NCBI GenBank assembly: GCA_013153965.1
Contig: JAADDJ010000052.1
Span: 5,944-69,943 of the forward strand
DNA length: 64,000 nucleotides
Source of the DNA: Thermotogota bacterium
Lineage (GTDB): Bacteria; Hydrothermota; Hydrothermia; LBFQ01
Direction of reading: 5' to 3'
In this document: in pieces, positions 31,604 through 39,850 of the stretch
How the letters are laid out: each line of letters begins with the position of its first letter
How positions within the stretch are numbered: the stretch's first letter is position 1
Made by a program: the position numbers and the translations under genes
The notes under the pieces: model-generated
Seen by the model: only the letters and a program-made list of their open reading frames with translations
What the model was told of the DNA's origin: nothing
The model's database searches: none

Positions 31604-32482
31604 ATGGTCCTTCTGATGCTGGTCTTCCAAACTCCGGGCGCCTCGGATACCACCGAGCCCTGCACGTGCGATCAGCTCCCGCAGGAGGAGATAGAGAGGA
31701 TCCTCAAGCAGATGGAGGAGGAGACCCGCTCCGTCCATCCGTCCGAGGTCCTATCCTTCGCCGAGAGCCTCTTTAAGGATGGCAAGTACAGGGAGGCGGC
31801 CTTGGAGTACCTGCGGTTCGTCACGCTGTTCCCCAACAGCGACAGCGCCGACTACGCCCACTTTATGGCGGCCTACAGCTACGAGTTGGCCGGGCTGTAC
31901 GAGTCCGCCGAGCGCCTCTTTAAGAAGCATCTGGAGGAGGGACGTAGGGGCGAGGTGTGGGTCCATTACGAGCTGGCGAGGATGTACCTGCATCTGGGGG
32001 ATACGGTGGCCTTCTACTCGGAGCTCTCCCAGATGCCCCGAAAGTCGCTTCAGCGCAAGGTCCTCATAGCATGGTTGAAGCTCGCGCAGGGGAACTGGGA
32101 GGGGGCCCGGAGGATATTGGCGGGGACTCCCCTTCAGGAGTACCTGCAACCTCCCAATCTGAAGTCCCCAACGAAGGCGGCCCTACTGTCAATCGTGCCC
32201 GGTCTGGGTCAGGCGTACGTTGGGAATCGGGGGACGGCTTACATGGGTGTTGCCTTCGTCGGCGGCTTCTACGCCCTCGCCGGATACTACGCCTTCAAGG
32301 AGAAGAGACTCCTACCCGCCTTGGCCTCCTTGGGAGTAGGTTTGGCATTCCACGCCGGCCAGATTTACGGCTCATGGGCCATGGCGAAGGTTATAAATAG
32401 GACGGAGTGGAGGGAGGTGATGGAGAGCTTCAAGCGGGGAGTTGATGAGGTGGTCAGACCGAAGATTGACGACTTCCTATGA
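31604..32482 (+). CDS. TPR-repeat protein with C-terminal 2-TM module (paralog C of a 3-member family)
   Basis: TPR-like N-terminal half. C-terminal LSIVPGLGQAYVGNRG plus two TM helices, shared with 33211..33903 and 33885..34574. Confidence 0.5.
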   Translation: MVLLMLVFQTPGASDTTEPCTCDQLPQEEIERILKQMEEETRSVHPSEVLSFAESLFKDGKYREAALEYLRFVTLFPNSDSADYAHFMAAYSYELAGLYESAERLFKKHLEEGRRGEVWVHYELARMYLHLGDTVAFYSELSQMPRKSLQRKVLIAWLKLAQGNWEGARRILAGTPLQEYLQPPNLKSPTKAALLSIVPGLGQAYVGNRGTAYMGVAFVGGFYALAGYYAFKEKRLLPALASLGVGLAFHAGQIYGSWAMAKVINRTEWREVMESFKRGVDEVVRPKIDDFL

Positions 32483-33252
32483 GGTGCGGCATAGACGAGG
32501 CCGGCCTGGGACCCCTGGTAGGCTCCCTCTTCGTGGTGGGTGTGAAGGTTGAGGGGGACCTATCCTCGGTGCGCGAGAGCAAGGAGGTCTTCAGGAGGAG
32601 CCTGCGCACCTACGCGGAGGGGGAGAGGGTGGTCTTAGGCCTTCTAAAGGCTCTGGGTATGTACTCGCCGAGCGTCTCCGAGACCTGGCGTAGGATATTC
32701 GGTCGCAGTCCGGCCATGCTTGAGGGTTTGAGATTCCCCCTCTTCGGCGGCTCCCCCTCACCGCTCCCCTTTAGGGTGTTGGATGTGGTGGCCGTTGAGG
32801 TGGAAGCCTTTCGGCTTCGTAGCCACCGCTTCGTGAAGGATGCCCGGGCGATGGTGAGCATAGCCTTGGGTCTAAATTGTCCGCAGGTCATCAGTGGATT
32901 GGCCGGAGGTTTCAAGGACTACGGACGGTTCCTTCGGGGCTGGGATGGGGAGAGGTTGGAGGATGGCATCCTCTACAGGCGGGGGAAGCGCAGGATCCTC
33001 TTCCTGAGGAAGGCGGACGCCCGATTCGGCGAGGTGGCCCTCGCATCCCTCATAGCCAAGTACCTGCGGGAGGTCCATATGCTGGCCCTGAATCGTCTCG
33101 TGGGCCTTGAGGGTGATATTCCTCCCGCGAGCGGATACCCATCGGACCCGATGACCCCAGTCCTGATTGAGAGGCTCATCGCGGCGGGGAGGACGGAGTT
33201 CCTGAGGGGTTCATCTCCACCCAACGCCCTCGGAGACCAGACTGTCGGCTAA
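32479..33252 (+). CDS. rnhB: Ribonuclease HII-like
   Basis: N-terminal CGIDEAGLGPLVGSL (DEAG catalytic motif). ATGA overlap with the upstream gene. Confidence 0.5.
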   Translation: MRCGIDEAGLGPLVGSLFVVGVKVEGDLSSVRESKEVFRRSLRTYAEGERVVLGLLKALGMYSPSVSETWRRIFGRSPAMLEGLRFPLFGGSPSPLPFRVLDVVAVEVEAFRLRSHRFVKDARAMVSIALGLNCPQVISGLAGGFKDYGRFLRGWDGERLEDGILYRRGKRRILFLRKADARFGEVALASLIAKYLREVHMLALNRLVGLEGDIPPASGYPSDPMTPVLIERLIAAGRTEFLRGSSPPNALGDQTVG

Positions 33253-33903: not shown

Positions 33904-34574
33904 CGGCTCACGTACTCCAAGGTTATCCTCTCGTTCATCTTCCGGACGGCCACGTAGGAGCCGTAGATGTTGCCGAGGTAGAAGTACGCGAAGGCGAGGC
34001 CATACACGGCCATCCTCGGCTTGCTGTCGTCCCGAGCCGCCAAGTAAAGCCCGAGGGCCAAGGAGGAGTTTATGGCGAAGGAGTATAGGCCATCCTTCCA
34101 TCTCCCCGCGTAGGCCTTCCCGAGTCCCGGAATGAGGGCCGAGAGGGCCGCCGCCACCGCGGGGGATTTCAGCCCGGGAGGGCGACCGAGGAGGTCGTAC
34201 GCCTTGCCGTCTCCGAGCATGGCCCCCGCCACCGCCTCCAAGGTGTCATCTCCCCTCCAGACGCGCCGGGCCTGTCCGTAGTCCCTCATCAGAAACATCA
34301 GCGTACCCAAATAGCGACGATAATCCCTCCCCGTGTGGTCCGTCGCCCAGTACTCCAGAGCCCTCATCCCCCCCATGGGATCCCCCAGAGCGACGTACGC
34401 CTCCAGCATCCTCCGCAGAACGTAGGAGTAGAGGGTGTCGGTGTCCCTACCCTCAATCCGCAACGTATAGAGAACCCGCTTGTACTCCAAGATGGCTCTG
34501 TACGGATCCCCCTCCAGATAGAGATCCCGGGCGAACATCAGAAGGCTGTCCAAGGAGGCTAAGAGGACCATCAT
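33885..34574 (-). CDS. TPR-repeat protein with C-terminal 2-TM module (paralog A)
   Basis: MMVLLASLDSLL..., LIPGLGKAYAGRW plus 2 TM. 19-nt overlap with paralog B start. Confidence 0.5.
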   Translation of the reverse strand: MMVLLASLDSLLMFARDLYLEGDPYRAILEYKRVLYTLRIEGRDTDTLYSYVLRRMLEAYVALGDPMGGMRALEYWATDHTGRDYRRYLGTLMFLMRDYGQARRVWRGDDTLEAVAGAMLGDGKAYDLLGRPPGLKSPAVAAALSALIPGLGKAYAGRWKDGLYSFAINSSLALGLYLAARDDSKPRMAVYGLAFAYFYLGNIYGSYVAVRKMNERITLEYVSRWLPLF

Positions 34575-34948
34575 CGGTAATCCTCCACGGGGTCGTATAT
34601 CTTGTATCCCCTCCCCTCCACGAAAACGACGCCCCCGTACTGCTCAGCGTAGGAGTACGCGCCCGGATGGCACCTCTGGAGCCTGTCGGATGAGAGGAGC
34701 AGGCCGCGGAGTGGGCCGTACTCTGCTATGGCCCGAGCCCCGAAGACGGAGCAGGATGGGTGGAAGTTGCACACCTCCCCCTGAATCTGGGAGACGCTCC
34801 CCCGGTAGAGTTTCCAAAGGAGGAGGAGGGTGCCCGTTATGGGATCCGAGGCGAAGACATCATCCCATCCTATAGTCCTCTCAGTTCGCGGCAGGTCGGG
34901 GAGGTCCGGCGTGAATCTAAGGGGGCCTAAAAGCAGTATCAGTCCCAT
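34571..34948 (-). CDS. yidD: Membrane protein insertion efficiency factor YidD
   Basis: FHPSCSVFGARAI...RCHP haemolysin-type motif. Confidence 0.7.
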   Translation of the reverse strand: MGLILLLGPLRFTPDLPDLPRTERTIGWDDVFASDPITGTLLLLWKLYRGSVSQIQGEVCNFHPSCSVFGARAIAEYGPLRGLLLSSDRLQRCHPGAYSYAEQYGGVVFVEGRGYKIYDPVEDYR

Positions 34949-35583
34949 CCCCTGTATATCACCTCAACGTCCGGAGGGAAGTCGCGCGCACGCACGTAAT
35001 CCGGCACCTGCGAATCGCTCTTAACGGCGATGCCGTGGAAGATGTAGGTCTCCCTGTAGGTTCCCCCGGGTGTGTGCATGACGGTCCTGATGGTGTCGGG
35101 GAAGCTGTAATCGTCATACACGCGTCTGATGCCGCCGAATTCCACCCTCAGGACCTCTCCGCCGTCGGGGCCGAAGGCCAGATACTTCACCATGGTGCCG
35201 TTTAGGGTGTATATGCGCAGCGTCATCTTGGCCTGCGGATGCCTGTAGGACTTTACGAGGGTGTCGCCCAAGTGCTTCGCGGATACGAACATGAATCCGG
35301 CCCTCTTCAGATTCTCCTCGGCGGAGCCGAAGGTCCCCATCCCCCCCTCCAGCATGCGGTGGGAGGACCGGAGCTTAAAGACCTTGCGATCCTCGGGATA
35401 GTATATTACGAGGGTGTCGGGCAGGAAGTACATTATCTGATTCACGGGTCTGACCACCCGCAGGATGGTTATCTTGGCGGGTTTCACGTAGAAGTAGCCG
35501 GATACCCGACCGTCGTCGGATTCCCTAATAAAGGAGCCCGACACCCATAAGGTGTCGGGCAGGGAGGCTGCTATCAGGAGCAT
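34939..35583 (-). CDS. Hypothetical periplasmic protein (LolA-like beta fold suspected)
   Basis: 214 aa, signal-like N-terminus, beta-rich. Weak call. Confidence 0.3.
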   Translation of the reverse strand: MLLIAASLPDTLWVSGSFIRESDDGRVSGYFYVKPAKITILRVVRPVNQIMYFLPDTLVIYYPEDRKVFKLRSSHRMLEGGMGTFGSAEENLKRAGFMFVSAKHLGDTLVKSYRHPQAKMTLRIYTLNGTMVKYLAFGPDGGEVLRVEFGGIRRVYDDYSFPDTIRTVMHTPGGTYRETYIFHGIAVKSDSQVPDYVRARDFPPDVEVIYRGWD

Positions 35584-35586
35584 CCT

Positions 35587-35985
35587 CTAATATCCGGAGT
35601 TAGCGCTGGCGGCCGCTCCGGCTACCAGACAGCAGTAGGAGCCGTAGCAGAGCGTGGCAAGGACCGTGGATGCCACGCAGCCGATGGCGGCCTTCTTCAC
35701 CTGTATGTCCTTTCCGGCCCTCTTGTAGCAGTCGGTATAGACGGCCACGTACTGGGGGTCCTTACCGACGAGACGGGTGGCCGGAGGGTCAGGCTCAAGC
35801 ACGTAGGCCGCACCCACGCCCAGAATGCCGAGGAAGAAACCGGCCGCGAGCCACAGGGTGCCGTTGACATCGTTCTGCACGTCCATCTGGGCCTGCTGGC
35901 AGGCCTCGCTGGCGGCCTGCGCCTGCAGAGCCACCGGCGCTGCTATCATGGAGACCGTTGCCAAAGTTAATGCCGCAAATCTCAT
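35587..35985 (-). CDS. Small secreted/membrane protein P1 (paralog of 37059..37424)
   Basis: Signal peptide, one TM (LWLAAGFFLGILGV), conserved PxxRLxGKxPxxVxxYx(D/E)CYxR...GC motif. Own TAGAAT promoter and canonical SD AAGGAGG 7 nt upstream. Confidence 0.5.
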   Translation of the reverse strand: MRFAALTLATVSMIAAPVALQAQAASEACQQAQMDVQNDVNGTLWLAAGFFLGILGVGAAYVLEPDPPATRLVGKDPQYVAVYTDCYKRAGKDIQVKKAAIGCVASTVLATLCYGSYCCLVAGAAASANSGY

Positions 35986-36030
35986 AACCTACCTCCTTTT
36001 TAAGGTTAGGAAGTACGAGATTCTAAGGAG
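35986..36030 (-). promoter_or_regulatory. P1 promoter (TAGAAT) plus canonical Shine-Dalgarno AGGAGG 7 nt before ATG
   Basis: Minus strand: CCTTAGAATCTCGTACTTCCTAACCTTAAAAAGGAGGTAGGTT-ATG. Contrasts with the leaderless heads elsewhere. Confidence 0.5.
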
Positions 36031-36091
36031 GAAATCCCCAAGCAACTTTCCGTTTGCTGGAAATCCTGCAACTCCATCCCGGATGGTGGAG

Positions 36092-36574
36092 CTACACCCT
36101 TTGGATGATGAGATAAAGGGAGACGAGGAACAGGAGAAGGAAGATGACACCGGTTAGGAGGGGGATCCTCTGCTCAACCTCGGTCAAACGCCTATAACCT
36201 TTGCGCTTGAGCATCTCCCACTCTCGCGAGTAGCATTGGCAAGGGAGTCGCTTTTCCATCTCATGGATGACCGCGAACTTGGCCGAGTTAAGGCGTCGGT
36301 AGGACTCCAAGTTCCTGTACCAGATGAAGCACAGGGCCATCCCCAGAGCAGCCAGAAGCGCGAGCAGGACGGGGGAGAGCATCTCCCGGCTCTGGAGGAT
36401 GGGGATGAGGGCCATCAGGGCCGAGAGGAGGGAGATGTAGAATCTGTTGGTGCGCTCTCTCCTGTCGCTGACCCTGTCCGCCATCTCCACGTAGAGTTTA
36501 TACTGCTCCAACAGGTCGTTGCATCCGCAGTTCCTGTCGCTCATATCGGGCATATCTCCATCCGCATGTTGCAC
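36092..36574 (-). CDS. Small 3-TM membrane protein, candidate effector partner of the TIR protein (SLATT-like architecture: N-terminal helix, 2 TM with short loop, helix, plus extra C-terminal TM)
   Basis: 160 aa from track. Internal ATG at 36544 (MSDRNCGCND...) forms an ATGA overlap with the TIR stop codon, giving a 150-aa product. TM1 YISLLSALMALIPIL, TM2 VLLALLAALGMALCFIW, TM3 IPLLTGVIFLLLFLVSLYLII. CxC pairs in both soluble segments. Confidence 0.5.
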   Translation of the reverse strand: MQHADGDMPDMSDRNCGCNDLLEQYKLYVEMADRVSDRRERTNRFYISLLSALMALIPILQSREMLSPVLLALLAALGMALCFIWYRNLESYRRLNSAKFAVIHEMEKRLPCQCYSREWEMLKRKGYRRLTEVEQRIPLLTGVIFLLLFLVSLYLIIQRV

Positions 36575-37047
36575 TTCTTACCCATGCACTCTCGCACATC
36601 CTCGCAATCCTTCAGCGTCTCGGACTCTATAAGTCGCCTGATCCGCTCTATTATGGCTCTGCAGTCCCATCCCACCACATCATCCGCCGCGCATTGGACG
36701 GGGCACGACAGCTTCGCGCTCCCTCGCGGTCTTATGAGGAGTACGGGTTTCGGCCTCTCAAACTTGCACTTCGCGAGGACTATCTCCTTGTTTATCCACC
36801 TGCTGTAGGTGGAATAGACTCCCCCGAGTATCAGGACCACCTGCGAGGGGGTCATCTGCCTCTTTATGGCCTCGCATAGATCCCTAACGGTGCCGGCATC
36901 ATGGATGGGGTCATCCTCGGGGACCGAGTAGTCCAAGAAGCGCACGTTCGGGTCACAGTCGTTCAATAGGCGGAGCAGACGGCTGTAATGCTCCCCGTAG
37001 CGCCACGAGTGGCTTATAAAGACCCGGAAAGTCTTCCCCCTCCCCAT
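36541..37047 (-). CDS. TIR-like domain protein (ThsB/DUF1863-like) with Cys-rich C-terminal tail
   Basis: FRVFISHSWRYGEHY (TIR beta-A FISHS motif) and SRWINKEIVLA (the W-x3-E catalytic-glutamate motif of DUF1863/ThsB). Strong SD AGGGAGGGAGG in the 11-nt gap after the P2 stop. Confidence 0.7.
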   Translation of the reverse strand: MGRGKTFRVFISHSWRYGEHYSRLLRLLNDCDPNVRFLDYSVPEDDPIHDAGTVRDLCEAIKRQMTPSQVVLILGGVYSTYSRWINKEIVLAKCKFERPKPVLLIRPRGSAKLSCPVQCAADDVVGWDCRAIIERIRRLIESETLKDCEDVRECMGKKCNMRMEICPI

Positions 37048-37058
37048 GGCCTCCCTCC

Positions 37059-37424
37059 CTAATACTTTATCGTGAAGACGGCGAGGCAGGATAGGGAGGT
37101 GTAGCCGAGGATGCAGCCCGCCGTGGAGGATGTGAGACGCAACTTCCGTCGGTATCGGCTATAGCACTCGCTGTATATCCGGACGAAGGTGGGCGATTTG
37201 CCTATAAGCCGTGCGTAGGAGGGATGAGGTTTGACGGTGTAAGCTATGAGCGGTATGATAGGGGCCGTCGTAGGCGTGAATAGAGCCGCCCCGAACCCCA
37301 GAGCGAACCACAGAACCGGATCCTCATCCTCCGCCGCGTCCTTCATAGCCATCTGACATATCCCGCTGGCCCCACCGTAGGACTGCGTGGAAGGCACGGA
37401 CACAAAGAGAAACGGCAAAAGCAT
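37059..37424 (-). CDS. Small secreted/membrane protein P2 (paralog of 35587..35985)
   Basis: Signal peptide, LWFALGFGAALF TM, same RLIGKSPTFVRIYSECYSR...GC motif as P1. Start 1 nt after the glycosyltransferase stop. Confidence 0.5.
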   Translation of the reverse strand: MLLPFLFVSVPSTQSYGGASGICQMAMKDAAEDEDPVLWFALGFGAALFTPTTAPIIPLIAYTVKPHPSYARLIGKSPTFVRIYSECYSRYRRKLRLTSSTAGCILGYTSLSCLAVFTIKY

Positions 37425-37425
37425 G

Positions 37426-38616
37426 CTAACGGACCGTGCTCAAGCTATCCTTCACCACATGCACTATCCTCTCCAAAGTCCCAGGCAAGGCGGATTCAAC
37501 CCTGTCCCAAACGGGTAGCCTCGGCGAGGGAACGGTCTCGTTCTCGTACTCCTTGAAGGCCTCATCTATGCAGTCGGAGAATATCTCTATGTAGCGCAAC
37601 TCCCTGTGAATGTTGAACTCAAGACCGTTGAGCAGGGATATGGTCTCGTACGTATCCACGTAGTCCTTGGCCGTAGTTATGTAGGTTTGCTTTATGGTGC
37701 GCTGAACCCCACTTGAGAAGATGACACCCCGGGACGAGAGCTCAACGAGGAAGGTCTTGAATATGTCCGTGACCATGCGACGCAGATCATCGCCTGGGCG
37801 GTGCTTGTGGTCGTACCTGTGGGCTATCTGCACCTGAACCATCTCCTCTATCCGCATGGTCCTGTAGGCTTCGGCCAGTATGCTCACCTCCATACCCCAA
37901 TCCGAGGGGATGCGGAGGCGACGGAAGACATCTACGTATCCTGCCATCTCTCCGGCGAGCGGATAGCGGAAGTCCCCCATGTACTCAAGGAACGTGTCGT
38001 ACCCGAAGATGATCTTCAGGGCCCGGATCATGGGAAAGTAGAAGAGCCTGACCACCCGACCGTAGAGCCTCTTGCCATAGCGGGCGTAAAAACCCTTGGC
38101 GAATCTGTAGTTTAGGCGGGCTATGGGATAGGCGAGCAGAAGCGGCATCTCCGCCGTGTAGGTCTTTATATCCGCATCGTGAAGGACCAGAACGTCCGTC
38201 TCCCTCTCACCCACCACGTAGCCTATACCCATCCATACGGCCGTCCCCTTCCCCCTCCTGCCGAGAGCGAACTCCCGGGCTATGGTCTGCCTTATCTCCC
38301 GCAGATGAGGGTTGTCGTTCCATATGACCGTTCCCTTACCCCGAAGGATATCCTTGACTATCCGAAGGGCGGTCTTGAACTCGTCGTGCGTGGCTCGGTC
38401 AAGGACGATATAGACCCGGTGTATCCCCTCCGTACTCGCTATGGTTCCGAGGATCTTGACCATCTCCTCCGTGGAGAAGTCGGTGTATAGGGAAGGTATC
38501 AGGACCCCCACCTTCTTGCCCGTCTGCTCAATCTCGGAGGACAGGACCACCGCGTTGCGCTTTCCGGGACGCAGGTAGGGGATGGTGGGTACCAAATTCT
38601 GATGGAGGTCTGCCAT
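37426..38616 (-). CDS. Glycosyltransferase related to mannosyl-/glucosyl-3-phosphoglycerate synthase (GT55/GT81-like)
   Basis: 396 aa; GKGTAVWMGIGYVVGE...HDADIKTY and HRYDHKH segments resemble MpgS (GKGEGML...DADNY; H.H..KG). TACAAT then 8 nt then ATG. Confidence 0.5.
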   Translation of the reverse strand: MADLHQNLVPTIPYLRPGKRNAVVLSSEIEQTGKKVGVLIPSLYTDFSTEEMVKILGTIASTEGIHRVYIVLDRATHDEFKTALRIVKDILRGKGTVIWNDNPHLREIRQTIAREFALGRRGKGTAVWMGIGYVVGERETDVLVLHDADIKTYTAEMPLLLAYPIARLNYRFAKGFYARYGKRLYGRVVRLFYFPMIRALKIIFGYDTFLEYMGDFRYPLAGEMAGYVDVFRRLRIPSDWGMEVSILAEAYRTMRIEEMVQVQIAHRYDHKHRPGDDLRRMVTDIFKTFLVELSSRGVIFSSGVQRTIKQTYITTAKDYVDTYETISLLNGLEFNIHRELRYIEIFSDCIDEAFKEYENETVPSPRLPVWDRVESALPGTLERIVHVVKDSLSTVR

Positions 38617-38644
38617 GTGAAAAAATTGTACGGCTGAATGCCGT

Positions 38645-39850
38645 TTAAGGGTTCTCGTAGGCGGCCACCACGACCGGAGAAGATATTATATCCCTCTTGA
38701 CGGCCTGCAGATCCTCCGCCGTTATGGAATCGTACAGGCTCAGGCTCTCGGATAGGGTGGGAACCCTACCGAACAGGTAGGCGGTCAGGGCCACGTTTAT
38801 GCCCACGCTCTCCACCTCCTCGTAGCTGAACACGAACTCGCTCTTGAACATCCTCTTGACCCGGCCCACGGCCGGAGTATCCACGGGCATACTCTCAAGG
38901 ATGGCGAGGATATCCTCAACCGGGGGTGAGCGCGTCGGAGCCACCTCACCGACGATGACGAGCACGTTTCCACCCGCGTACTCGTAGTTCCGAACGTTGA
39001 ACATCTCCATCTTCCCGCTCTCAATCAGGGGCCACAGGGGGGAGGAGCGCTCCAGGTCAAGCACCCGCGTTAGGACGTTTATGGCGGTGTTGTACCGGAG
39101 GGAGGGCTGCGGAAGGCGAAAGGCCACGATGAACCGCTTGGGACGATTCGCCCTGACCACGCTCCTCTTGAACCATCGGTAGGTGGGCATCCCGTGATTC
39201 GGATGCCTTATTTCCTCGTAGGGCTCCAGATTCCCGAAAGAGTTCTCCACCTCACCGAGGACCTTCTCCAGAGGTAGGCGGCTCACGACGGTGAGTAGGG
39301 CGTTGTTGGGCCTGTAGAGCCTGTCGTAGAAGTCTCTCACGTCCTTTAGGGTGAGATTCCTCACATCCTCCGGCCAGCCGCTGACGGGATGGGAATAGGG
39401 GGAGTCGGGCCACAGGTGCGCGAATATCTCCGTCCATAGGCGCTCGTCATCCTCGTTCTCACTTAGAAGATACTCCTCCAATATCACCCTCTTCTCCGCC
39501 TCAAAGTGGGCGAAGAGGAGGTTTCGCATGCGGTCCGCCTCCAACCTTAGGACGTCGGCGACCCGGCTCGTAGGTACGACCGTGTGATAGACCGTTATGT
39601 CCCTGTCGGTGAATGCGTTGTCCTGCCCTCCCCACGCGTCTATGTAGAGGCTGAAAGGTCCGTAGTTGCGGCTGCCGTTGAACATCAGATGCTCCAGTAT
39701 GTGGGCTACGCCCGTCCGTCCGGAACGCTCATAGGCGGAGCCGGCCCTGTAGAGGAGTACCACCGAGCTGACATCCTCCGGATAGTACTGGTAGTGAAGG
39801 GTCAAACCGTTCGGGAGCCTAAGGGTCTCAACCCTCTCGTTCCACGACAT
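38645..39850 (-). CDS. M16-family zinc peptidase (insulinase-like)
   Basis: HILEHLMFNGS inverted zincin HxxEH motif. Confidence 0.8.
   Translation of the reverse strand: MSWNERVETLRLPNGLTLHYQYYPEDVSSVVLLYRAGSAYERSGRTGVAHILEHLMFNGSRNYGPFSLYIDAWGGQDNAFTDRDITVYHTVVPTSRVADVLRLEADRMRNLLFAHFEAEKRVILEEYLLSENEDDERLWTEIFAHLWPDSPYSHPVSGWPEDVRNLTLKDVRDFYDRLYRPNNALLTVVSRLPLEKVLGEVENSFGNLEPYEEIRHPNHGMPTYRWFKRSVVRANRPKRFIVAFRLPQPSLRYNTAINVLTRVLDLERSSPLWPLIESGKMEMFNVRNYEYAGGNVLVIVGEVAPTRSPPVEDILAILESMPVDTPAVGRVKRMFKSEFVFSYEEVESVGINVALTAYLFGRVPTLSESLSLYDSITAEDLQAVKRDIISSPVVVAAYENP

What the first reader, a model, noticed from the sequence alone, without database searches (positions are those of the whole stretch)
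35587..37424. Two paralogous small secreted/membrane proteins (P1, P2) bracket the TIR-TM pair
35587..35985 and 37059..37424 align over about 70 residues. Both have a signal peptide, an LW(L/F)A.GF TM segment and the shared motif P..RL(V/I)GK(D/S)P.(Y/F)V..Y(T/S)(D/E)CY.R plus a conserved GC(V/I). P2 is coupled 1 nt after the upstream glycosyltransferase stop and 11 nt before the TIR ATG. P1 has its own TAGAAT promoter and a textbook SD (AAGGAGG, 7-nt spacer), which is rare among operon-first genes in this window. The arrangement P2-TIR-TM-P1 suggests either insertion of the TIR cassette into a tandem duplicate, or that the paralogs are part of the system (for example immunity/anchor proteins or targets).
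Basis: seen in the sequence. Interest (0 to 1): 0.55.

Follow-up and report, generated by a model that had tools for sequence, protein, structure and literature searches.

The report
Housekeeping membrane-protein paralogs flank inserted TIR module
The two small membrane proteins are real paralogs from a large, unnamed envelope-protein family, and nothing ties them to the TIR defence pair that sits between them; the likeliest reading is that they are housekeeping genes and the defence pair was inserted next to them.

Summary
P1 (35587..35985, -) and P2 (37059..37424, -) are homologous (BLASTP E=8e-19). P2 scores 58 bits against a P1-only profile, against at most 6.8 bits for 1000 shuffles.

The functional reading is not supported.
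- P1 belongs to a large family with no Pfam model (1335 cluster representatives). It occurs in WOR-3, Poribacteria, Bacteroidota, Rhodothermales, Calditrichota and Ignavibacteria.
- In those genomes P1 is the first gene of a conserved operon: P, a roughly 214-aa partner, YidD, then TPR proteins.
- Extra copies of the family, tandem or nearby, occur in 9 of 43 genome loci. None of about 45 other P-family loci carries a TIR or 8xMP gene.
- The ThsB-type TIR plus 8xMP membrane protein is a recurrent two-gene module. It looks like a Thoeris defence system. In 46 of 65 informative 8xMP loci a TIR gene lies directly upstream, and none of 83 loci has a P-family gene.
- The nearest relatives (GT gene 80% identical in DNA) have GT, a ~91-112-nt spacer, then P1. 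The whole 1.4-kb block P2-TIR-8xMP is specific to this lineage.
- P1 keeps its ancestral promoter and Shine-Dalgarno site.

P2 is an orphan, at most about 40% identical to any family member retrieved. Its origin is unresolved. A role for P2 in the TIR system is unlikely but not excluded.

The parts
35587..35985 (-). P1: 132-aa small membrane protein (signal peptide, acidic periplasmic helix with Cys, TM1, basic cytoplasmic loop with the RLVGK.P.YV..YTDCY motif, TM2). It is the resident ortholog and the first gene of the conserved P-214aa-YidD-TPR operon.
   Evidence: 14 homologs at 48-72% identity. Profile search found 1335 cluster representatives. Synteny is conserved in WOR-3 and other FCB-group genomes. 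AF2 model has pLDDT 83 and is a helical hairpin. Hydropathy and charge distribution.
37059..37424 (-). P2: 121-aa highly diverged paralog of P1. It keeps the family core, has a 7-residue insertion in TM1, a short N-terminal hydrophobic segment without a basic residue, and a shorter C-terminus.
   Evidence: BLASTP against P1 E=8e-19. 58 bits against a P1-only HMM. The only database match is itself. 25-33% identical to all P1-clade members and at most 40% over 86 residues to the 165 family sequences compared. Absent from the closest relatives.
36541..37047 (-). ThsB-type TIR protein, 168 aa, with the conserved glutamate (E88 in SRWINKEI) and a Cys-rich C-terminal tail.
   Evidence: Pfam ThsB_TIR 1.1e-13. 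PADLOC ThsB 2.9e-05. E88 is identical in 51 of 51 TIR partners of 8xMP genes. The closest pair, L057/L058, is 60% identical in protein.
36092..36553 (-). 8xMP ('octameric membrane protein', named RipA family by NCBI): a 153-aa protein with three hydrophobic helices, the presumed membrane effector of the TIR pair. It overlaps the TIR stop by 13 nt.
   Evidence: Pfam PF24838 5.7e-41. 763 homologs, one named 'RipA family octameric membrane protein'. AF2 model has pLDDT 82 and three long helices. A TIR gene lies directly upstream in 46 of 65 loci. The gene call with the ATG at 36553 comes.
36007..37425 (-). Lineage-specific 1.4-kb block (P2-TIR-8xMP plus the distal part of the spacer). In relatives L001, L007, L014 and L015 it is absent, and a ~91-112-nt GT-P1 spacer takes its place.
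   Evidence: The blastn breakpoints fall at 37444 and 36006. The GT C-terminus has the same length in all genomes compared. There are no flanking repeats. GC3 is like the host's.
35986..36091 (-). P1 upstream spacer with the -10 TAGAAT (36025..36020) and the Shine-Dalgarno AAGGAGG (35998..35992). Its proximal half is homologous to the GT-P1 spacer of relatives.
   Evidence: Alignment A3 and the raw spacers. The sigma-70 consensus scan did not call this site, so the promoter assignment rests on conservation alone.
35536..35560 (-). Conserved 11-bp-stem hairpin, GCCCGACACCT-TAT-GGGTGTCGGGC, followed by a U-rich tract. It lies about 27 nt after the P1 stop, inside the first codons of the 214-aa gene. 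It may act as an attenuator or a 3'-end stabiliser.
   Evidence: Found by the terminator scan. The arms are invariant, synonymous sites included, in 6 aligned genomes. The same sequence is present in L001-L009, L014-L017 and L019.
34939..35583 (-). 214-aa partner protein, which always follows P-family genes. It has no family assignment. There is a weak LolA-like hint.
   Evidence: Follows P in nearly all loci. No Pfam hit for the window copy; one ortholog matches LolA at E=0.056. No PDB sequence match.
34571..34948 (-). YidD (membrane protein insertion efficiency factor), the third gene of the conserved operon.
   Evidence: Pfam YidD 1.2e-15. Synteny.
37426..38616 (-). GpgS-like glycosyltransferase. 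Its stop codon lies 1 nt before the P2 ATG. It is orthologous to the gene upstream of P1 in the closest relatives.
   Evidence: NCBIfam GpgS_Meth 5.5e-72, below the curated cutoff. 80% DNA identity to L001 and L007.

Best explanation
P1 and P2 are two members of a large, uncharacterised family of small inner-membrane proteins from the FCB-group phyla listed in the full report.

Protein architecture. Each protein has a signal peptide, a short acidic periplasmic helix, TM1, a basic cytoplasmic loop of about 38 residues carrying the conserved RLVGK.P.YV..YTDCY motif, and TM2.

P1. It is the resident, vertically inherited copy. It heads a conserved envelope operon (P, a 214-aa partner, YidD, TPR proteins). 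It has its own promoter, a strong ribosome-binding site and a conserved hairpin just downstream. I infer that it works as a membrane-embedded anchor or assembly subunit for its translationally coupled 214-aa partner, in envelope or membrane-protein biogenesis.

P2. It is a lineage-specific, strongly diverged extra copy.

TIR-8xMP. This is an autonomous Thoeris-like defence module. By analogy with characterised Thoeris systems, a ThsB-type TIR would make an ADP-ribose-derived signal on phage infection, and that signal would open or assemble the oligomeric 8xMP membrane protein.

The arrangement. The module lies in the GT-P1 spacer purely as a matter of insertion site. The bracket P2-TIR-8xMP-P1 is therefore a product of genome history, not a four-gene system.

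Shown: the homology, the size of the family, the synteny, the absence of the block in relatives, the recurrence of the TIR-8xMP pair, and the lack of co-occurrence.

Inferred: the topology, the role of P1, the defence mechanism, and the transcription units.
For: Homology:
- BLASTP and the P1-only profile both support it.

Family size and spread:
- 1335 cluster representatives at E<=1e-3 and 797 at E<=1e-10.
- 43 genome loci in WOR-3/Hydrothermia, Poribacteria, Rhodothermales, Bacteroidota, Calditrichota, Ignavibacteria and Eisenbacteria.

P1 as the resident gene:
- The order P, 214-aa partner, YidD, TPR is conserved in most loci.
- Extra P paralogs occur without any TIR gene in L010, L021, L032, L033, L034, L043, L046, L050 and L054.
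- The P1 -10 box and Shine-Dalgarno site align with those of three relatives.

No link between the two gene sets:
- No TIR or 8xMP hit in any other P locus, using an iterated TIR HMM and an 8xMP HMM.
- In 46 of 65 informative 8xMP loci a TIR gene lies directly upstream, and the catalytic-type Glu is conserved in 51 of 51.
- No P-family hit at E<=1 in 83 8xMP loci.
- The genes upstream of TIR are heterogeneous; the largest cluster has 3 members.
- 8xMP is found on 4 viral contigs and the P family on none.

The block is lineage-specific:
- It is absent in relatives whose GT gene is 80% identical in DNA.
- Two-gene TIR-plus-effector operons with membrane effectors are established Thoeris architectures (bioRxiv 10.64898/2025.12.03.692087).

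Modular membrane role:
- The P domain also occurs as a C-terminal module behind CsgG/LpoB-like, caspase, TPR and SH3 domains. This fits a generic N-out membrane-anchor role.
Against: - P2 and TIR-8xMP are present together and absent together in the only comparison available (n=1).
- P2, TIR and 8xMP are tightly packed on one strand (1 nt, 11 nt, and a 13-nt overlap). No promoter was recognised inside the block, so P2 is probably co-transcribed with the defence genes.
- P2 has diverged far more than any P1 ortholog, as immune-related or co-opted genes often do.
- The origin of P2 is unresolved. It is about equally distant from all clades. Its NJ grouping with a divergent upstream paralog in L034 is not backed by shared features.
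- No function has been measured for any member of the P family or of 8xMP.
Confidence: 0.7

Rival explanations
1. En-bloc cargo. P2 did not arise in place. It arrived together with TIR-8xMP on one DNA fragment from another FCB-group genome, in which the defence pair sat next to a P-family gene. P2 is then a hitch-hiking fragment with no role in defence. It may be 5'-trimmed, which would explain its short N-terminus without a basic residue and its start 1 nt after the GT stop.
For: - The whole block is missing in relatives, and their spacers hold no trace of P2.
- P2 is an outgroup-like long branch and not the sister of the window's P1.
- The P2 pre-Cys segment is about 6 residues shorter and lacks the R/K at positions 2-3 that 14 of the other 15 aligned members have; the exception, P0014, starts MNG.
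- The left edge of the block coincides with the P2 ATG.
Against: - No donor-like arrangement was found: 0 of 83 8xMP loci has a P-family gene.
- The closest TIR-8xMP relatives, L057 and L058, have an unrelated gene downstream. Their upstream side is not covered by the contigs.
- GC3 of P2, TIR and 8xMP is like the host's.
- There are no flanking repeats and no integrase.
Confidence: 0.15
2. Co-opted component. P2 is a functional accessory of the TIR-8xMP system. It could be a decoy or guardee copy of the housekeeping protein P1 whose perturbation by a phage protein triggers the TIR. It could instead be a membrane tether or antidote for 8xMP.
For: - P2 is tightly coupled to the TIR gene: an 11-nt spacer that contains only a Shine-Dalgarno site.
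- P2 and the module are present together and absent together.
- P2 has diverged extremely yet keeps every invariant core residue. That suggests continued but altered selection.
- Both P2 and 8xMP are inner-membrane proteins.
Against: - TIR-8xMP occurs widely as a bare pair with variable neighbours and never with a P-family gene.
- P paralogs arise repeatedly without TIR genes.
- The case rests on a single genome.
- No interaction evidence could be obtained.
Confidence: 0.08
3. Decaying duplicate. P2 is a relic copy under relaxed selection. It would be poorly expressed or non-functional and on its way to loss.
For: - Only self-matches exist in about 15 billion proteins.
- The signal peptide is degenerate, TM1 carries prolines and a 7-residue insertion, the C-terminus is shortened, and there is no recognisable Shine-Dalgarno site of its own.
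Against: - The reading frame is intact.
- All 13 family-invariant positions and the cytoplasmic motif are retained at only 28-30% overall identity. That pattern indicates purifying selection on the core.
- GC3 is like the host's.
Confidence: 0.07

Closest known systems
Thoeris-type TIR signalling defence systems with membrane effectors (type II Macro-TM, type V DUF2270/ThsF, type VII SLATT/ThsH; bioRxiv 10.64898/2025.12.03.692087)
   Same: - A small ThsB-family TIR protein with the conserved Glu, followed immediately by a small multi-helix membrane protein predicted to oligomerise.
- A two-gene operon found in variable genomic contexts and occasionally on viral contigs.
   Different: - The effector belongs to Pfam 8xMP (PF24838). 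It is not Macro-TM, DUF2270 or a clear SLATT; SLATT_6 and DUF4231 give only weak hits in 2 of 24 members.
- No PADLOC effector model matches it.
- I found no experimental test of this pair.
- P1 and P2 have no counterpart in any described Thoeris type.
Pfam PF24838 8xMP, named 'RipA family octameric membrane protein' by NCBI
   Same: The TM partner matches at 5.7e-41 over the whole model. Its homologs carry that NCBI name.
   Different: This concerns the gene between the paralogs, not P1 or P2. No paper on the family turned up in the held library, and there is no solved structure by sequence or by fold.
YidD-containing membrane-biogenesis gene clusters
   Same: P1 lies in a conserved operon with YidD. 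From general knowledge, YidD is a membrane-protein insertion efficiency factor.
   Different: From general knowledge, the classical context of yidD is rnpA-yidD-yidC. Here YidD follows a P-family gene and an unassigned 214-aa protein, and TPR membrane proteins come after it. This operon type appears not to have been described.
Defence genes inserted into conserved housekeeping neighbourhoods
   Same: A self-contained defence module sits in an intergenic spacer of an otherwise syntenic region. The downstream promoter is preserved.
   Different: There is no integrase, no tRNA site, no repeats and no compositional signal. The module is accompanied by a divergent paralog of the neighbouring gene.

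Membership tests
P family (unnamed small two-TM envelope proteins heading the P-214aa-YidD operon) | Sequence core: C.QA..D....LW..G(F/C), AY..EP.P, RLVGK.P.YV..YTDCY and GC | tested here: met
   P1 scores E=1.1e-60 and P2 E=1.1e-39 against the family HMM. P2 scores 58 bits against an HMM built without it. P2 is identical to the other 15 sequences at all 13 invariant columns.
P family (unnamed small two-TM envelope proteins heading the P-214aa-YidD operon) | Immediately followed by the ~214-aa partner gene, usually then YidD and TPR genes | tested here: met
   Met for P1: 3 nt separate its stop from the partner's ATG, and the order is the same in most of the roughly 45 loci. Not met for P2, which is followed by the TIR gene. 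Extra paralogs in other genomes likewise lack their own partner gene.
P family (unnamed small two-TM envelope proteins heading the P-214aa-YidD operon) | Topology: exported N-terminus, two TM helices, cytoplasmic basic loop | tested here: inconclusive
   Hydropathy, the positive-inside count and the AF2 helical hairpin agree with this topology. So do fusions behind periplasmic-type domains. No dedicated predictor or experiment was available. The signal peptide of P2 is weak.
Thoeris (TIR signalling defence) | ThsB-type TIR domain with the catalytic glutamate | tested here: met
   Pfam ThsB_TIR 1.1e-13. PADLOC ThsB 2.9e-05. E88 is conserved in 51 of 51 homologous partners. That this Glu is the catalytic one is inferred from knowledge of the family.
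Thoeris (TIR signalling defence) | An effector gene adjacent in the same operon, with the association recurring across genomes | tested here: met
   13-nt overlap between the two genes in the window. A TIR gene lies directly upstream of 8xMP in 46 of 65 informative loci.
Thoeris (TIR signalling defence) | The effector belongs to a validated Thoeris effector family (types I-XI) | tested here: not met
   No PADLOC hit for the TM protein. Pfam gives only 8xMP, with weak SLATT-like hints in 2 of 24 homologs. The terms 8xMP, RipA, PF24838, PF11368 and DUF3169 do not appear in the survey paper or its supplements.
Thoeris (TIR signalling defence) | Phage-triggered production of an ADPR-derived signal, and anti-phage protection | not testable with these tools
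   This needs experiments.
Accessory or immunity component of the TIR-8xMP module (claimed for P1 and P2) | Recurrent co-occurrence with the module in independent genomes | tested here: not met
   0 of 83 8xMP loci has a P-family hit at E<=1. None of about 45 other P loci has a TIR or 8xMP gene. The genes upstream of TIR are heterogeneous.

The most novel reading that the evidence does not exclude
P2 is a co-opted, fast-evolving decoy copy of the housekeeping envelope protein P1. In this reading it has been recruited as the sensor-side partner of a TIR-8xMP defence module. A phage protein that targets P1 during entry or envelope takeover would also engage P2, and that would switch on the TIR. 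This would be a bacterial guard/decoy arrangement built from a duplicated host target.
Probability: 0.07. Interest if true: 0.75.

Novelty: new member of a known kind. Interest (0 to 1): 0.27.

Why it matters
The main value is corrective. The eye-catching bracket of paralogs around a TIR pair is best explained by where a mobile defence module landed, not by a new four-gene immune system.

Two by-products may be useful.
- There is a large protein family with no Pfam model (about 1300 clusters at 50% identity). It heads a conserved operon (P, a 214-aa protein, YidD, TPR proteins) in WOR-3, Bacteroidota, Poribacteria and relatives. This gives a starting point for studying membrane and envelope biogenesis in those phyla.
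- The survey shows that a ThsB-type TIR plus an 8xMP/'RipA-family' membrane protein is a widespread two-gene pair. I found no experimental test of it, and it is a candidate further Thoeris type.

Tried and rejected
- Literature on 8xMP, PF24838 and RipA: nothing relevant in the held library. The 'RIPA' hits were lysis buffer.
- PDB sequence searches with P1/P2, the 214-aa partner, TIR and 8xMP, as single sequences and as profiles: no informative match. TIR matched only MTH538 at E=0.005.
- Foldseek against the PDB with the P1 and 8xMP models: nothing below E=0.18.
- The afdb50 library was not available.
The LolA-like idea therefore rests on one weak Pfam hit.
- Search for a P2 remnant in the GT-P1 spacers of relatives: scores fell within the shuffled range.
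- Target-site duplications or terminal repeats around the block: only short matches that look like chance.
- Compositional evidence for recent transfer: none, since GC3 of P2, TIR and 8xMP lies within the host range.
- Orthology of P2 with the divergent upstream paralog of L034, which the NJ tree suggested: rejected. They are 28% identical and do not share the insertion, so the grouping is probably long-branch attraction.
- Rfam scan of 34400..38800: only chance-level hits.
- P family on viral contigs: none found.
- Sigma-70 consensus scan: it called no promoter on the minus strand, not even the conserved P1 -10 box, so it says little about transcription here.
Full report
**1. What is in the sequence**

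All the genes concerned lie on the minus strand. In order of transcription they are:
- a GpgS-like glycosyltransferase, GT (37426..38616; NCBIfam GpgS_Meth 5.5e-72, below the curated cutoff);
- P2 (37059..37424, 121 aa);
- a TIR protein (36541..37047; Pfam ThsB_TIR 1.1e-13; PADLOC ThsB 2.9e-05);
- a membrane protein with three hydrophobic helices (36092..36553; Pfam PF24838 '8xMP, octameric membrane protein' 5.7e-41);
- P1 (35587..35985, 132 aa);
- a 214-aa protein with no family assignment (34939..35583);
- YidD (34571..34948; Pfam 1.2e-15);
- TPR-like membrane proteins.

- GT stop, 1 nt, P2 ATG.
- P2 stop, 11 nt (GGAGGGAGGCC), TIR ATG.
- TIR and 8xMP overlap by 13 nt.
- 8xMP stop, 106 nt, P1 ATG. 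This spacer holds TAGAAT (36025..36020) and AAGGAGG (35998..35992). By my count the AAGGAGG is 6 nt from the ATG, not 7.

The same arrangement is present in a JGI metagenome contig of 118,840 bp. P1, P2 and 8xMP also appear in an NCBI MAG labelled 'Thermotogae bacterium' (GXO29_06715, 06720 and 06730). Its closest relatives are all labelled candidate division WOR-3 or Hydrothermia.

**2. Is the paralogy real?**

Yes.
- BLASTP gives E=8e-19, with 30% identity over about 115 residues.
- A profile built from P1 and its 14 orthologs, without P2, scores P2 at 58.3 bits. The best of 1000 shuffles of P2 scores 6.8 bits.
- P2 is identical to the other 15 sequences at all 13 invariant columns of the 16-sequence alignment, and it has the hydrophilic loop motif. 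The similarity is therefore not just transmembrane composition.

Hydropathy and charge counts and an AF2 model (pLDDT 83; helices 3-39, 42-62 and 77-129) point to one topology. It has an exported N-terminus, TM1, a basic cytoplasmic loop and TM2. The signal peptide of P1 is canonical. That of P2 is short, lacks a basic residue and is doubtful.

**3. What family is this?**

The word-indexed search found only 14 P1 homologs, and for P2 only P2 itself. The exhaustive profile search found 1335 cluster representatives at E<=1e-3 and 797 at E<=1e-10. There is no model for the family in Pfam, NCBIfam or PADLOC.

A scan of species-representative genomes returned 43 loci. They come from WOR-3/Hydrothermia, Poribacteria, Rhodothermales, Bacteroidota, Calditrichota, Ignavibacteria and Eisenbacteria. 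I call these phyla the FCB group, from general knowledge of bacterial taxonomy.

In most loci the gene order is P, a homolog of the 214-aa protein, YidD, then TPR proteins. P1 is the first gene of a deeply conserved envelope-type operon.

Extra P paralogs, in tandem or nearby, occur in L010, L021, L032, L033, L034, L043, L046, L050 and L054. Duplication of this gene is recurrent.

In longer proteins the P domain forms the C-terminal module. It follows CsgG/LpoB/TolB_N-like, caspase, TPR or SH3 domains. This fits an N-out membrane-anchor module.

One ortholog of the 214-aa partner gives a weak LolA hit (E=0.056). I treat this as a lead only.

**4. What is between the paralogs?**

The 8xMP protein has 763 homologs, one of which NCBI names 'RipA family octameric membrane protein'. 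A metagenome scan returned 80 loci.
- Of the 65 loci with at least 500 nt upstream, 46 have a small TIR gene directly upstream on the same strand, often overlapping. Two of those have large multidomain TIR proteins instead.
- An archaeal locus has a TIR-NB-ARC-WD40 protein upstream.
- The glutamate that corresponds to E88 of the window's TIR is identical in 51 of 51 of these TIR proteins.
- The closest pair (L057 and L058; TIR 60%, 8xMP 74% protein identity, 70% DNA identity) has the same overlapping layout. A different gene lies downstream.
- The genes upstream of TIR in these loci are heterogeneous.
- Four viral contigs carry 8xMP.

This is the signature of an autonomous, mobile two-gene defence module. 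It has the Thoeris design: a TIR sensor and signal generator plus an effector. Several membrane-effector types of that design were described recently (bioRxiv 10.64898/2025.12.03.692087).

The 8xMP effector is not one of the validated effector families. It has no PADLOC hit, and only weak SLATT-like hints appear in 2 of 24 homologs. So the pair works like a Thoeris system, but its membership of a defined type is not established.

**5. Are P1 and P2 part of it?**

The co-occurrence test is negative in both directions.
- No P-family hit at E<=1 in 83 8xMP loci.
- No TIR or 8xMP hit in any of the other roughly 45 non-redundant P loci, with 6-8 kb of flank each.
- The P family was not found on viral contigs.

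**6. History of the locus**

In relatives L001, L007, L014 and L015 the GT gene is 80% identical in DNA up to window position 37444. The P1-to-YidD stretch aligns from 36006 onward. The 1.4 kb in between is absent from those genomes, which have a ~91-112-nt spacer there.
- The GT C-terminus has the same length in all of them, so the extra block starts right after the GT stop.
- The proximal half of the window's 8xMP-P1 spacer aligns with the relatives' GT-P1 spacer. The alignment includes the -10 box (TAGAAT against TGnTATAAT) and AAAAAGGAGGTA. P1 therefore kept its ancestral expression signals.
- There are no flanking repeats and no integrase nearby.
- There is no compositional anomaly: GC3 is 0.71-0.82, against 0.72 +/- 0.09 for long ORFs of the window.
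- The relatives' spacers hold no remnant of P2.

P2 is about equally distant from every clade (25-33%). In an NJ tree it sits on a long branch. Its nearest neighbour is another divergent upstream paralog, from L034. The two share only 28% identity and not the TM1 insertion.

Two histories remain open. P2 may have arisen in place and diverged fast before the cassette inserted between P2 and P1. Alternatively, it may have arrived with the cassette.

**7. Mechanism I commit to**

P1 is a housekeeping two-TM inner-membrane protein. I infer that it acts with its translationally coupled 214-aa partner in the YidD/TPR envelope operon.

TIR-8xMP is a Thoeris-like abortive-infection pair. By analogy, phage-triggered TIR NADase or cyclase chemistry makes a signal, and the signal activates the oligomeric membrane effector.

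P2 is a diverged spare copy whose position next to the module is historical. I give this reading 0.7. The remainder is divided as follows:
- 0.15 to the variant in which P2 is en-bloc cargo;
- 0.08 to a real co-option of P2;
- 0.07 to P2 as a decaying relic.

**8. Verdict**

Novelty is modest. The locus combines members of an unnamed but widespread membrane-protein family with one more instance of a TIR plus membrane-effector pair. Interest is about 0.27.

Noticed in passing
window 35536..35560 (- strand); also L001:8421-8445, L004:8428-8452, L008:5324-5348, L017:3199-3223 and others: A perfect 11-bp-stem hairpin, GCCCGACAC(C/T)nTnTGGGTGTCGGGC, followed by a U-rich tract. It lies about 27-35 nt after the P1 stop, within codons LPDTLWVSG of the 214-aa gene. 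The arms are invariant, synonymous positions included, across WOR-3 genomes whose flanking coding DNA is only about 68% identical and whose partner proteins fall to 33% identity. This suggests selection at the RNA or DNA level. It could be an attenuator or 3'-end stabiliser that sets the ratio of P1 to downstream genes. No Rfam match.
   Followed up: partly
L001:7905-7935, L007:2360-2385, L015:5920-5945 (the GT-P1 spacers of relatives); window 36040..36075: The relatives share a repeated motif, ATTGCAAC-N5-TTGCAAC, upstream of an extended -10 box (TGTGTATAAT). It looks like an operator. The window has only a degenerate version, GTTGCAGGATTTCCAGCAAAC...GTTGCTT.
   Followed up: no
proteins P0248, P0215, P0243, P0154, P0261 and P0144: The P domain occurs as a C-terminal module fused to a caspase (Peptidase_C14), to CsgG/LpoB/TolB_N-like domains, to TPR repeats or to SH3 domains. 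It therefore looks like a reusable membrane-anchoring module.
   Followed up: partly
window 34939..35583 (-) and its orthologs (alignment A4): The 214-aa partner that always follows P has no family assignment. One ortholog gives a weak LolA hit (E=0.056). The partner could be a LolA-like periplasmic protein.
   Followed up: partly
window 31604..33252 (+ strand), compared with L001:10816-12458: The TPR-like 292-aa gene and the RNase HII-like gene are on the opposite strand in the window. In L001, L007 and L015 they run in the same direction as the P operon. This indicates a local inversion at the distal end of the operon.
   Followed up: no
L012:2498-5477 (archaeal MAG); L064 and L070: In some loci the gene before 8xMP is a large TIR-NB-ARC-WD40 (STAND-type) protein instead of a small ThsB-like TIR. 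The same membrane effector is therefore paired with different TIR sensors.
   Followed up: no
L067, L078, L100 and L133: Some 8xMP loci carry a second TIR gene, convergent and immediately downstream, in addition to the upstream one.
   Followed up: no
window 38630..38644 (- strand): A terminator-like hairpin with a T-run lies between the M16 peptidase gene and GT. It suggests that the transcript covering GT-P2-TIR-8xMP starts just upstream of GT.
   Followed up: no
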